Source: Beijerinckiaceae bacterium (GTDB lineage Bacteria; Pseudomonadota; Alphaproteobacteria; Rhizobiales; Beijerinckiaceae). Taken from it: 64,000 bases of DNA. The notes beneath the pieces were generated by a model. The model was not told the origin of the DNA. It did not search any database and worked only from the letters and a program-made list of their open reading frames with translations. Made by a program: the position numbers and the translations under genes. Location of the stretch: the NCBI GenBank assembly GCA_050249115.1, contig JBFWRC010000012.1, forward strand, positions 19,540-83,539, in the 5' to 3' direction. Positions 12,400-12,522 of this stretch are shown in pieces. Each line of letters starts with the position of its first letter. Within the stretch, counting starts at the first letter, position 1.

Positions 12400-12522
12400 A
12401 AAAAAAAGGGCCGGGCTCTAGGCCCGGCCGACTTCCGGATAAACCGGTCGTCTCCAGAGGGGAACGGCTGAAGGAATGGAACCCATACCGGAAGGGAGGG
12501 GGGTAGGGCTCCGGCCTAAAGC
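12400..12522 (-). ncRNA. AbcR / alpha-r15-like small regulatory RNA
   Basis: Hairpin with a C-rich loop (CCCUACCCCCCUCCC), then the AbcR-like core CAGCCGUUCCCCUCUGGAG, then a GC-rich terminator with U8. TAGTGT -10 at 12533-12528. The 5' end is approximate. Confidence 0.75.

What the first reader, a model, noticed from the sequence alone, without database searches (positions are those of the whole stretch)
12400..12522. Hidden AbcR/alpha-r15-like sRNA between msrP and ndvA
Seen on the minus strand: stem CCGGAG/UUCCGG with loop CCCUACCCCCCUCCC; stem UUCAG/CUGGA with loop CCGUUCCCCU; a third small stem; terminator GGCCGGGC/GCCCGGCC with U8; a -10 TAGTGT; an upstream GCAT-N7-ATGC palindrome. Known: AbcR1/2 of Agrobacterium, Sinorhizobium and Brucella use a CUCCC and a GUUCCC anti-SD loop to silence ABC-transporter mRNAs and are activated by LsrB/VtlR. 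Inference: a divergent AbcR homologue with a longer C-rich first loop, in a lineage rich in TTT/TRAP binding proteins.
Basis: partly seen in the sequence, partly recalled or inferred. Interest (0 to 1): 0.7.

Follow-up and report, generated by a model that had tools for sequence, protein, structure and literature searches.

The report
Divergent AbcR small RNA gene
The stretch between msrP and ndvA almost certainly encodes a roughly 124-nt regulatory RNA, a divergent relative of the AbcR (alpha-r15) RNAs that silence nutrient-uptake genes in rhizobia, Agrobacterium and Brucella. It is too diverged for the public Rfam model to flag, but it is a new member of a known family, not a new kind of element.

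Summary
Two of its drawn stems do not.

- **The unit.** A promoter-to-terminator unit lies on the minus strand at 12584-12400. It has an LsrB/VtlR-type box (GCATAGCTCCCATGC), -35- and -10-like hexamers, an RNA of about 124 nt (12523-12400) and a GC hairpin followed by eight U.
- **Rfam result.** The Rfam model ar15 gives only 21.6 bits against a cut-off of 40.
- **Evidence for homology.**
  - The match covers the whole model and contains the exact core GUUCCCCUCUGGA.
  - Seven distinct relatives from other assemblies keep the fold through compensatory changes.
  - A model built from those relatives finds bona fide ar15 RNAs at E 1e-5 to 1e-7.
  - In the relatives the RNA sits just downstream of trxB-lsrB. 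The window has that operon 10.6 kb away on the same strand.
  - The box lies at -61 to -49, the same position as in the S. meliloti abcR1 promoter.
- **The fold.** It is the AbcR fold: a long first hairpin with loop CCCCUCCCUUCC, a single-stranded GUUCCCCUC, a second hairpin and the terminator.
- **Likely function (inferred).** LsrB-activated and probably Hfq-assisted, the RNA would pair with ribosome-binding sites of transporter binding-protein mRNAs. The nearby tctC gene is a candidate target.
- **Gaps.** I found no direct evidence that it is transcribed.
- **Verdict.** A new, divergent member of a known family, of moderate interest.

The parts
12570..12584 (-). LsrB/VtlR-type box GCATAGCTCCCATGC, at -61 to -47 relative to G12523
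   Evidence: Read from the sequence; occurs once in the window. It matches the published GCAT-N3-TG-N3-T box in 6 of 7 specified positions (TG is TC here), and it sits where the box sits in the S. meliloti abcR1 promoter. A GCAT-N7-ATG(C/T) box at the same distance is present in most relatives, including Rfam-certified ar15 locus L092; three have variants such as ACAT or GCAC.
12554..12559 (-). -35-like hexamer GTTGTG
   Evidence: It lies 17 nt upstream of the -10-like hexamer. A (C/G)(G/A)TTG(T/C) element is present at the same place in the relatives. Assignment is by inference; the E. coli-type consensus scan found no promoter.
   Evidence: It matches the alphaproteobacterial consensus CTATAT (quoted) in 4 of 6 positions. 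Relatives have CATAGT, AATACT, CATATT or AATAGT at the same place. It ends 7 nt before G12523. Inferred, not mapped.
12400..12523 (-). AbcR-like sRNA, about 120-124 nt
   Evidence: Full-length sub-threshold match to Rfam ar15 at 12523-12402. Scores 109.7 bits against the model built from the homologues, and is the only hit in the window. The block conserved with L109 and L112 ends exactly at 12401/12398.
12466..12523 (-). Stem-loop 1: basal stem 12523-12515 with 12474-12466, and apical stem 12508-12502 with 12489-12482
   Evidence: RNAalifold consensus and pair counts: compensatory changes in 4 of 10 basal and 2 of 6 apical pairs among 8 sequences, and in 7 of 10 and 6 of 6 among 22 sequences.
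12490..12501 (-). Loop CCCCUCCCUUCC, the anti-Shine-Dalgarno motif 1 (aSD1) equivalent
   Evidence: UCCCUUCC is invariant in the eight group-A sequences. It corresponds in position to aSD1 (CUCCUCCC) in the 5' hairpin loop of S. meliloti AbcR1/2.
12457..12465 (-). Single-stranded GUUCCCCUC, anti-Shine-Dalgarno motif 2 (aSD2)
   Evidence: Exact match to the Rfam ar15 consensus GUUCCCCUCUGGA and to the S. meliloti aSD2 UUCCCCUC. Invariant in all 22 aligned homologues (helix 4 columns). Occurs only once in the window.
12430..12452 (-). Stem-loop 2: GAC-GA-CCGG [UUUAU] CCGG-AA-GUC
   Evidence: RNAalifold consensus. All 8 pairs show compensatory changes across the 22 sequences (helices 5 and 6).
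12400..12429 (-). Rho-independent terminator: an 8-bp GC stem followed by eight U
   Evidence: Terminator scan. L109 carries a compensatory G-C to U-A change. 7 of 8 pairs covary across the 22 sequences.
23089..23979 (-). lsrB/vtlR orthologue, the likely activator; same strand as the sRNA, 10.6 kb upstream of it
   Evidence: 385.8 bits over its full length against PDB 9HH1 (A. tumefaciens LsrB); the next LysR regulator scores 122.7. It is 86% identical to the LysR C-terminus that precedes the sRNA in L089.
24029..25207 (-). trxB, as an ORF; the true start is probably later
   Evidence: NCBIfam thioredoxin-disulfide reductase, 419.5 bits against a cut-off of 343. A trxB-lsrB operon is reported as constant in Rhizobiales (PMC11975290).
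16650..16661 (+). Candidate target site CCAGAGGAGAAC, 4 nt upstream of the start codon of tctC (16666-17694)
   Evidence: 11 of 12 bases complementary to aSD2, with a duplex energy of -20.8 kcal/mol. Sites this close to the complement: 3 in the window, one being the sRNA gene itself, against 0.19 expected. The tctC orthologues in L106, L108, L115 and L116 keep CAGAGGGAAC at the same place. Pfam assigns the gene to TctC. The target role is inferred.

Best explanation
The segment 12584-12400 on the minus strand is a free-standing gene for a trans-acting small RNA of about 124 nt. It belongs to the AbcR (alpha-r15) lineage and descends from the copy that sits downstream of trxB-lsrB in other Rhizobiales/Hyphomicrobiales. 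In this lineage a block of transporter genes has moved it 10.6 kb away from lsrB.

**Shown here**
- The promoter-to-terminator block is conserved independently of its flanking genes.
- The AbcR architecture is kept by compensatory changes: stem-loop 1 with a C-rich loop, a single-stranded GUUCCCCUC, stem-loop 2 and a terminator.
- An LsrB-type box lies at -61 to -49.
- An LsrB orthologue is encoded in the window.

**Inferred from the characterised AbcR1/2 of S. meliloti, A. tumefaciens and B. abortus**
- LsrB binds the box and activates sigma-70 transcription starting near G12523.
- Transcription ends in the U-run at 12407-12400, and the U-tail and hairpins recruit Hfq.
- The two exposed anti-Shine-Dalgarno motifs, loop CCCCUCCCUUCC and GUUCCCCUC, pair with the ribosome-binding regions of mRNAs for periplasmic solute-binding proteins. 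This blocks translation and promotes decay.
- In this organism the targets probably include TTT- and TRAP-type as well as ABC-type binding proteins. The tctC gene at 16666 is the best local candidate.
For: **1. Rfam match.** The ar15 match covers the whole model (positions 1-112) at exactly these coordinates, with the invariant core GUUCCCCUCUGGA.

**2. Relatives and context.**
- Seven distinct close relatives were found by two independent routes: an 18-mer scan of metagenomes and contigs encoding LsrB homologues.
- In L089/L122, L090, L119-121 and L123-125 the RNA starts about 110 nt after the lsrB stop codon.
- In L112 it follows lysE.
- In L109 it lies between dctP and msrP.

**3. Conserved block.** Between the window and L109 or L112, the only alignable intergenic DNA is 12596-12401 and 12591-12398 respectively. 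These are 78% identical, as high as the msrP coding sequence at 76.5%.

**4. Structure.**
- On a MAFFT alignment the fold is 92.4% paired with 8 compensatory pairs.
- Across 22 family members it is 93.9% paired, with 28 of 35 pairs compensatory and 0 of 500 shuffles as good.

**5. Reciprocal detection.**
- The model built from the divergent group scores curated ar15 RNAs at 29-37 bits, E 1e-5 to 1e-7.
- These include the tandem copies L087:684-801 and L096:1581-1700, which my search pattern did not select.
- Rfam ar15 scores fall continuously through the lsrB-linked RNAs: 110, 58, 37, 30, 25, 21.6 bits.

**6. Regulator.** The LsrB orthologue and trxB are both in the window. The box position equals that reported for the S. 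meliloti abcR1 promoter.

**7. Targets.**
- Start regions of binding-protein genes pair better with the cognate sRNA motifs than those of other genes (-15.9 against -11.3 kcal/mol, p = 0.0006).
- The tctC start region has an 11 of 12 complement to aSD2, and its orthologues keep it.
Against: - There is no hit at Rfam's gathering score. At window scale the ar15 E-value is not significant on its own.
- There is no direct evidence of transcription. The window comes from a landfill metagenome for which no RNA runs were found. Metatranscriptome contigs that overlap relatives are shallow, run through the terminator, and could be DNA carry-over.
- The box has TC where the published consensus has TG.
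- The first-loop motif is not the canonical CUCCUCCC.
- The gene is not adjacent to lsrB in this genome.
- The target statistics may only reflect the strong Shine-Dalgarno sequences of highly expressed binding-protein genes.
- Part of the family set was selected through an 18-mer that contains aSD2. Conservation of that motif in the wider set is therefore partly circular, but it is not circular for the loci found through LsrB.
Confidence: 0.85

Rival explanations
1. It is a small RNA of a neighbouring alpha-r family rather than AbcR. One candidate is the suhB/MmgR family (RF00519, same Rfam clan as ar15). The other is the alpha-r14/NfeR1 type, which carries CCUCCUCCC loops.
For: - suhB gives sub-threshold hits on relatives: L093 at 32.1 bits and L121 at 21.2 bits. 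Earlier work reports that alpha-r15 shares its second hairpin and terminator with suhB.
- The long C-rich loop resembles alpha-r14 loops. The sister clade also has a C-rich loop in stem-loop 2.
Against: - In the window ar15 outscored the overlapping member of its clan, and its match covers the whole model including stem-loop 1.
- The ultraconserved AbcR motif GUUCCCCUCUGGA, the linkage to lsrB and the LsrB box at -61 to -49 are AbcR1 hallmarks.
- alpha-r14 RNAs carry the motif in all three loops. Here stem-loop 2 has UUUAU.
Confidence: 0.06
2. It is a relocated, decaying copy. The sequence is homologous to AbcR but is no longer expressed or functional since it was separated from lsrB.
For: It lies 10.6 kb from lsrB. 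The box departs from the consensus at one position. No transcript data exist for it.
Against: - It is the only copy in the window, and none lies next to lsrB.
- The box, the -35 and -10 elements, both anti-SD motifs and the terminator are all intact.
- The displaced clade (window, L109, L112) keeps the fold through compensatory changes, for example in the L109 terminator and basal stem.
- The block is as conserved as the neighbouring coding sequence.
Confidence: 0.05
3. It is not an RNA gene. It would be only the intrinsic terminator region of msrP plus chance C-rich sequence, or a small protein-coding gene or cis-acting leader.
For: - The hairpin lies 28 nt after the msrP stop codon, in convergent orientation.
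- An AUG at 12525 opens a 35-codon frame.
- In L089, L119 and L122 a binding-protein gene follows on the same strand.
Against: - The U-run is on the minus strand only, so the hairpin is not a canonical terminator for msrP.
- The block is conserved where msrP is absent, as in L112, L119 and L123.
- The reading frame is not kept. In L109 the AUG is followed by a stop after two codons, and indels of 1, 4 and 5 nt occur.
- The unit has its own promoter and a strong terminator, and in the window no gene follows it on the same strand.
Confidence: 0.03

Closest known systems
AbcR1 (Smr15C1/SmelC411 of S. meliloti; AbcR1 of A. tumefaciens; AbcR1/2 of B. abortus); Rfam RF02345 ar15
   Same: - Three-hairpin layout.
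- A C-rich anti-SD motif in the loop of the first hairpin.
- The exact single-stranded motif UUCCCCUC (GUUCCCCUCUGGA) between the first and second stem-loops.
- A GC-rich terminator with a U-tail.
- A GCAT-N3-T(G)-N3-T box at -61 to -49.
- Genetic linkage to trxB-lsrB in the relatives.
- An LsrB orthologue in the same genome.
   Different: - It scores 21.6 bits against Rfam's cut-off of 40.
- The first stem-loop is longer: about 37 nt where the Rfam alignment has 26.
- The first loop reads CCCCUCCCUUCC, not CUCCUCCC.
- The box has TC in place of TG.
- There is a single copy, not a tandem AbcR1/AbcR2 pair.
- In this genome the gene lies 10.6 kb from lsrB, between msrP and ndvA.
- The host lineage is an uncultured member of Hyphomicrobiales. 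Its LsrB is 82% identical to that of a Methylocella strain. A 2012 survey did not list Beijerinckiaceae (Methylocella, Beijerinckia) among the families where alpha-r15 was found.
suhB/MmgR (alpha-r8), Rfam RF00519, same clan CL00108
   Same: It shares the second hairpin and terminator module and a C-rich single-stranded motif. Relatives give sub-threshold hits.
   Different: MmgR lacks the long 5' hairpin with aSD1. It has not been reported as lsrB-linked or dependent on an LsrB box. In the window the ar15 match wins and covers the whole model.
alpha-r14 / NfeR1 family ('cuckoo' CCUCCUCCC RNAs)
   Same: Anti-SD C-rich hairpin loops, and repression of transporter mRNAs at the ribosome-binding site.
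   Different: alpha-r14 RNAs repeat the motif in every hairpin loop and have no GUUCCCCUC linker. S. meliloti NfeR1 is tied to NtrBC nitrogen signalling (title and abstract of PMC10746234, listed), and no LsrB box is reported for it.
SorX (RF02784) of Rhodobacter sphaeroides
   Same: This is the best raw Rfam score in the region (27.8 bits). It shares a CUCCC-type motif and an almost identical terminator, GGCCGGGC...GCCCGGCC followed by U6.
   Different: The match rests on the terminator, with 33 unaligned nucleotides in the first hairpin. From my own knowledge, SorX is processed from a 3' UTR under RpoHI/HII control. The context and promoter here are different.

Membership tests
Rfam RF02345 (ar15), as curated | Covariance-model score at or above the gathering threshold of 40 bits | tested here: not met
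   No hit at gathering. The sub-threshold hit is 21.6 bits, with E = 0.04 for 551 nt. The cut-off also misses the other lsrB-adjacent homologues, which score 21.5-36.9 bits. I therefore read it as a limit on the seed's sensitivity, not as the boundary of homology.
AbcR / alpha-r15 sRNAs (biological family) | Architecture: 5' hairpin, single-stranded linker, second hairpin, Rho-independent terminator, about 100-125 nt | tested here: met
   The Rfam alignment covers all model positions. RNAalifold gives the same helices. Covariation: 8 pairs among 8 sequences and 28 of 35 pairs among 22 sequences.
AbcR / alpha-r15 sRNAs (biological family) | aSD2: ultraconserved single-stranded UUCCCCUC between the first and second stem-loops | tested here: met
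   GUUCCCCUCUGGA lies at 12465-12453, identical to the Rfam consensus and to the S. meliloti aSD2. It is invariant in all homologues.
AbcR / alpha-r15 sRNAs (biological family) | [quoted passage not shown] | tested here: inconclusive
   The loop is CCCCUCCCUUCC (12501-12490). It is exposed and C-rich and contains CCUCCC, but it is not the canonical octamer.
AbcR / alpha-r15 sRNAs (biological family) | abcR1-type promoter: LsrB/VtlR box GCAT-N3-TG-N3-T at about -61 to -49, upstream of sigma-70 hexamers | tested here: met
   GCAT-AGC-TC-CCA-T lies at 12584-12572, which is -61 to -49 from G12523. It matches 6 of 7 specified bases. Most homologues keep the box at the same distance, including L092, which scores 103.9 bits against Rfam ar15. 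Binding itself was not tested.
AbcR / alpha-r15 sRNAs (biological family) | Chromosomal linkage to the trxB-lsrB (vtlR) operon | tested here: inconclusive
   The sRNA is directly adjacent to lsrB in relatives L089/L122, L090, L119-121 and L123-125. In the window the lsrB orthologue is present, on the same strand, but 10.6 kb away.
AbcR / alpha-r15 sRNAs (biological family) | Expressed as a discrete Hfq-bound RNA that represses binding-protein mRNAs of transporters | not testable with these tools
   The only data are shallow metatranscriptome contigs over relatives and in-silico pairing.
alpha-r14 / NfeR1 | The anti-SD motif CCUCCUCCC repeated in all hairpin loops | tested here: not met
   Only the first loop is C-rich. 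The loop of the second stem-loop is UUUAU.

The most novel reading that the evidence does not exclude
This is a distinct AbcR subfamily with loop CCCCUCCCUUCC. In this clade, islands of tripartite-transporter genes (tctC, dctPQM) inserted between lsrB and the sRNA have separated it from lsrB. It would have been re-targeted from ABC-type to TTT- and TRAP-type binding-protein mRNAs, with the adjacent tctC as a direct aSD2 target. That would couple LsrB redox sensing to carboxylate uptake in uncultured Hyphomicrobiales.
Probability: 0.3. Interest if true: 0.45.

Novelty: new member of a known kind. Interest (0 to 1): 0.35.

Why it matters
- **Wider reach of the module.** The LsrB-AbcR module is a redox-responsive regulator driving an anti-Shine-Dalgarno RNA that throttles nutrient uptake. 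These results place it beyond Rhizobiaceae and Brucellaceae, in uncultured Hyphomicrobiales and Methylocella-like lineages.
- **Rfam seed too narrow.** The ar15 seed missed at least 12 distinct lsrB-linked homologues seen here.
- **Practical uses.**
  - The new sequences could widen the ar15 seed alignment.
  - Anchoring on trxB-lsrB is a reliable way to find divergent AbcR genes.
  - The tctC start region is a concrete target to test.
- **Limits.** The finding does not reveal a new mechanism.

Tried and rejected
- **Rfam at gathering score over the whole window:** nothing found.
- **sRNA next to ndvA in 80 species-level relatives** (Hyphomicrobiaceae, Rhodomicrobium, 59-72% NdvA identity): no copy by single-sequence or profile nhmmer. 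The ndvA neighbourhood is therefore incidental.
- **DNA runs that share words with the region (X3-X6):** they cover only conserved msrP coding sequence plus one short contig that falls short of the sRNA, so they give no variant information.
- **RNA evidence:**
  - One seawater metatranscriptome contig matches 12422-12501 at about 90%, but it extends 164 nt past the match, roughly 140 nt beyond the predicted start.
  - Four lake and river metatranscriptomes have contigs at 2-3x depth over the relative in L089. They begin 11-59 nt inside the sRNA and run through the terminator. This is suggestive at best.
- **Second copy directly downstream of the window's lsrB:** absent.
- **Naive target scan over all ORF starts in the window:** dominated by GC-rich spurious ORFs and discarded.
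- **E. coli-type promoter scan:** finds nothing. The promoter assignment rests on alignment with relatives and the alphaproteobacterial consensus.
- **SorX and SorY hits:** rejected as matches driven by the terminator.
- **Small-ORF reading:** rejected because the frame is not conserved.
- **Literature searches** for AbcR homologues in Bradyrhizobium, Beijerinckiaceae or Hyphomicrobiaceae: no report in the papers I opened.
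Full report
**1. What is in the sequence**

On the minus strand the intergenic region between two + strand genes reads as a complete transcription unit.

- The flanking genes are msrP (ORF 11109-12374; NCBIfam MsrP 416 bits against a cut-off of 207) and the cyclic-glucan exporter ndvA/chvA (12775-14535; 798 bits against 733).
- The unit consists of:
  - a palindromic box GCATAGCTCCCATGC (12584-12570);
  - GTTGTG (12559-12554);
  - a 17-nt spacer;
  - CAATAG (12536-12531);
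  - seven nucleotides later GGCU... (12523);
  - an 8-bp GC hairpin (12429-12409) followed by eight T (12407-12400).
- The 131-nt stretch folds at -58.7 kcal/mol. None of 200 dinucleotide shuffles does as well (z = -4.67).
- GTTCCCCTC occurs exactly once in the 64 kb window.

**2.

- Rfam at curated thresholds finds nothing in the window.
- With permissive settings on 551 nt, ar15 (RF02345) matches 12523-12402 over all 112 model positions. The score is 21.6 bits against a gathering score of 40, with E = 0.04. Scaled to the whole window by my own arithmetic, that E-value is roughly 5, so the hit proves nothing alone.
- The alignment is still informative. The basal stem of the first hairpin, the invariant GUUCCCCUCUGGA, the second hairpin and the terminator all line up. 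The loss in score comes from a longer and different upper part of the first hairpin.
- The nominally better SorX hit (27.8 bits) rests on the terminator.

**3. Relatives**

- The window comes from a landfill metagenome, and no RNA library from it was found.
- Eighty species-level relatives of ndvA (Hyphomicrobiaceae, Rhodomicrobium and others, 59-72% protein identity) have no such RNA nearby.
- An exact scan of JGI metagenome contigs for CAGCCGTTCCCCTCTGGA returned 25 loci, of which about 16 are AbcR-like.
  - Six matches in five of those loci pass Rfam's ar15 threshold at 58-110 bits.
  - The other AbcR-like loci rescanned score 21-37 bits.
- L089 and L090 share the window's loop (CCCUCCCUUCC), linker, second hairpin and terminator, but differ in their stems.
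- In both, the RNA starts about 110 nt after a LysR-type gene that ends ...NAQRWEF*. It is followed by a gene for an NMT1-type solute-binding protein with a GGAGGGAG ribosome-binding site.

**4. The regulator is in the window**

- The LysR C-terminus from L089 hits the window at 23388-23092 with 86% identity.
- The full 296-aa protein (23979-23089, minus strand) scores 385.8 bits end to end against PDB 9HH1. The next-best LysR structure scores 122.7. 9HH1 is the cryo-EM structure of A. tumefaciens LsrB.
- Immediately upstream, on the same strand, lies trxB (419.5 bits against a cut-off of 343). The paper that reports 9HH1 states that lsrB forms an operon with trxB throughout Rhizobiales.
- The window therefore encodes an LsrB/VtlR orthologue.
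- There is no sRNA directly downstream of it. The sRNA lies 10.6 kb further along the same strand.

**5. More homologues, and how the gene moved**

Contigs that encode LsrB homologues 82-94% identical to the window's protein were examined. A profile search then located the sRNA in them.

| Loci | Gene order |
|---|---|
| L119-121, L122, L123-125 (Methylocella-like genomes) | trxB-lsrB-sRNA-binding-protein gene |
| L112-114 | trxB-lsrB-lysE-sRNA |
| L109 | trxB-lsrB-lysE-tctC-dctMQP-sRNA, with msrP convergent |
| L106-108, L115-116 (closest) | Same gene order as the window; the fetched stretch stops just short of the sRNA |

- In the window, the stretch from the sRNA to lsrB holds ndvA, a bacA-like ABC gene, tctC, dctPQM and two unknown ORFs.
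- The position "between msrP and ndvA" is therefore the result of transporter genes inserted between lsrB and its sRNA.
- Between the window and L109 or L112, whose flanking genes differ, the only alignable intergenic DNA is 12596-12401 and 12591-12398. These blocks are 78% identical, against 76.5% for the msrP coding sequence.
- That block is exactly box, promoter, RNA and terminator.

**6. Structure**

- Eight sequences (seven distinct in the paired regions) were aligned with MAFFT, which is blind to structure. RNAalifold then predicted:
  - a 10-pair basal stem and a 6-pair apical stem enclosing the loop CCCCUCCCUUCC;
  - an unpaired GUUCCCCUC;
  - a second hairpin;
  - the terminator.
- On that alignment 92.4% of cells pair and 8 pairs show compensatory changes. 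When the partners are slid by 1-3 columns, 47% or fewer pair.
- Aligned to the model together with 14 broader family members, 93.9% of cells pair and 28 of 35 pairs have compensatory changes. None of 500 shuffles reaches this. The caveat is that this second alignment is fitted to the model.
- The small UCC/GGA helix inside aSD2 never varies, so it has no support.
UUCAGCC is in fact the 3' strand of the basal stem.

**7. Family membership**

- A covariance model built only from the divergent group finds a single copy in the window (109.7 bits; the next hit scores 14.4).
- The same model finds Rfam-certified ar15 RNAs at 29-37 bits, E 1e-5 to 1e-7. These include L087:684-801 and L096:1581-1700. 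Both are tandem copies that lack my 18-mer, so my search did not select them.
- Rfam ar15 scores fall without a gap across lsrB-linked RNAs, from 110 bits down to 21.6.
- The promoter agrees as well:
  - The published VtlR/LsrB box is GCAT-N3-TG-N3-T (PMC7486931).
  - In the S. meliloti abcR1 promoter it lies at -61 to -49, upstream of CTTGAC-N17-CTATAT (PMC8844928).
  - Here GCAT-AGC-TC-CCA-T lies at -61 to -49 from G12523.
  - Most homologues carry GCAT-N7-ATG(C/T) at the same distance. Three have variants such as ACAT or GCAC.
- The S. meliloti motifs are aSD1 CUCCUCCC in the first loop and aSD2 UUCCCCUC in the linker. The window has aSD2 exactly and a variant, longer aSD1.
- I therefore file it as a divergent AbcR homologue that fails Rfam's operational cut-off. 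I do not treat it as a member of another family.
- A 2012 survey found alpha-r15 in Rhizobiaceae and Brucellaceae, and lacking chromosomal copies in Mesorhizobium. It did not list Beijerinckiaceae for this family (PMC3346310).
- I found no later report in the papers I opened.

**8. Mechanism**

Everything in this section is inferred.

- By analogy with AbcR1, LsrB bound to the box activates transcription. The RNA would then use its two exposed C-rich motifs, probably with Hfq, to occlude the ribosome-binding sites of mRNAs for periplasmic binding proteins.
- Two computations are consistent with this.
  - In five loci that carry their own sRNA, the start regions of 12 binding-protein genes pair more strongly with the cognate motifs than those of 68 other genes (-15.9 against -11.3 kcal/mol, one-sided Mann-Whitney p = 0.0006). 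This may only reflect strong Shine-Dalgarno sequences.
  - The tctC gene at 16666-17694 has CCAGAGGAGAAC four nucleotides before its start codon. That is an 11 of 12 complement of aSD2, with a duplex energy of -20.8 kcal/mol.
- Sites this close to the aSD2 complement occur 3 times in the window, once as the sRNA gene itself, against 0.19 expected.
- The tctC orthologues in four relatives keep CAGAGGGAAC at the same place although the surrounding bases differ.

**9. Transcription evidence is weak**

- A seawater metatranscriptome contig matches 12422-12501 at about 90%, but it extends 164 nt past the match, roughly 140 nt beyond the predicted start.
- Four lake and river metatranscriptomes have contigs at 2-3x depth over the relative in L089. 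They begin 11-59 nt inside the RNA, none spans the promoter, and several run through the terminator.
- These contigs show neither expression nor its absence.

**10. Verdict**

- The element is a divergent, relocated AbcR (alpha-r15) sRNA gene under a probable LsrB promoter.
- It is a new member of a known family. Its value lies mainly in annotation and in showing that the Rfam model is too narrow.

Noticed in passing
window 23089-23979 (-): The LsrB orthologue lacks both cysteines reported as conserved among the A. tumefaciens, S. meliloti and B. abortus proteins. In the alignment C144 and C273 both align with valine. It has cysteines at the positions aligned with T270 and R288 instead. If it senses redox state at all, it may use a different thiol pair.
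   Followed up: partly
window 12524-23088, compared with L109, L112, L119, L122, L123: The distance from lsrB to its sRNA varies widely: about 110 nt in L119, L122 and L123, about 950 nt in L112, 5.2 kb in L109 and 10.6 kb in the window. The difference is made up of blocks of transporter genes (lysE, tctC, dctPQM, a bacA-like ABC gene, ndvA). This intergenic spot appears to be a repeated insertion site.
   Followed up: partly
window 20845-22395 (-) and 22441-22950 (-): Two ORFs of 516 and 169 aa lie directly downstream of lsrB and have no Pfam or NCBIfam match. The closest relatives carry a lysE gene at this place instead.
   Followed up: no
L089 490-515, L090, L119, L123 (stem-loop 2 of the sRNA): The sister clade has a third C-rich loop in stem-loop 2 (UGUCCC, AUCCCC or UUCCCC). 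The window, L109 and L112 have UUUAU or UUUUA there. This may be an extra anti-SD module that was gained or lost.
   Followed up: no
L083, L084, L086, L091, L093, L094, L100/L102, L104: These metagenomic AbcR-like RNAs have the GCAT-N7-ATG-type box. Several sit right after a LysR gene ending ...QRW..(Y/F)*. Those rescanned score 21.5-36.9 bits, below Rfam's ar15 gathering score. The curated model misses whole branches of the family.
   Followed up: partly
window 14171-16588 (+): This ORF overlaps the 3' end of ndvA by 365 nt. Its SbmA/BacA-like membrane domain and ABC ATPase domain begin around codon 220, so the real start is probably near 14.6 kb. The result is a bacA-related exporter right after ndvA.
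   Followed up: no
window 12418-13596 (-) and 12476-12727 (+): Long ORFs run through the sRNA and antisense to ndvA, with no domain hits. They are typical spurious frames of GC-rich DNA and could mislead automatic gene callers into masking the sRNA.
   Followed up: partly
window 14418-14429 (+): A second near-complement of aSD2 (CCAGAGCGGAAC) lies inside the ndvA coding region. Pairing within coding sequence has been described for A. tumefaciens AbcR1, but I did not examine this site further.
   Followed up: no
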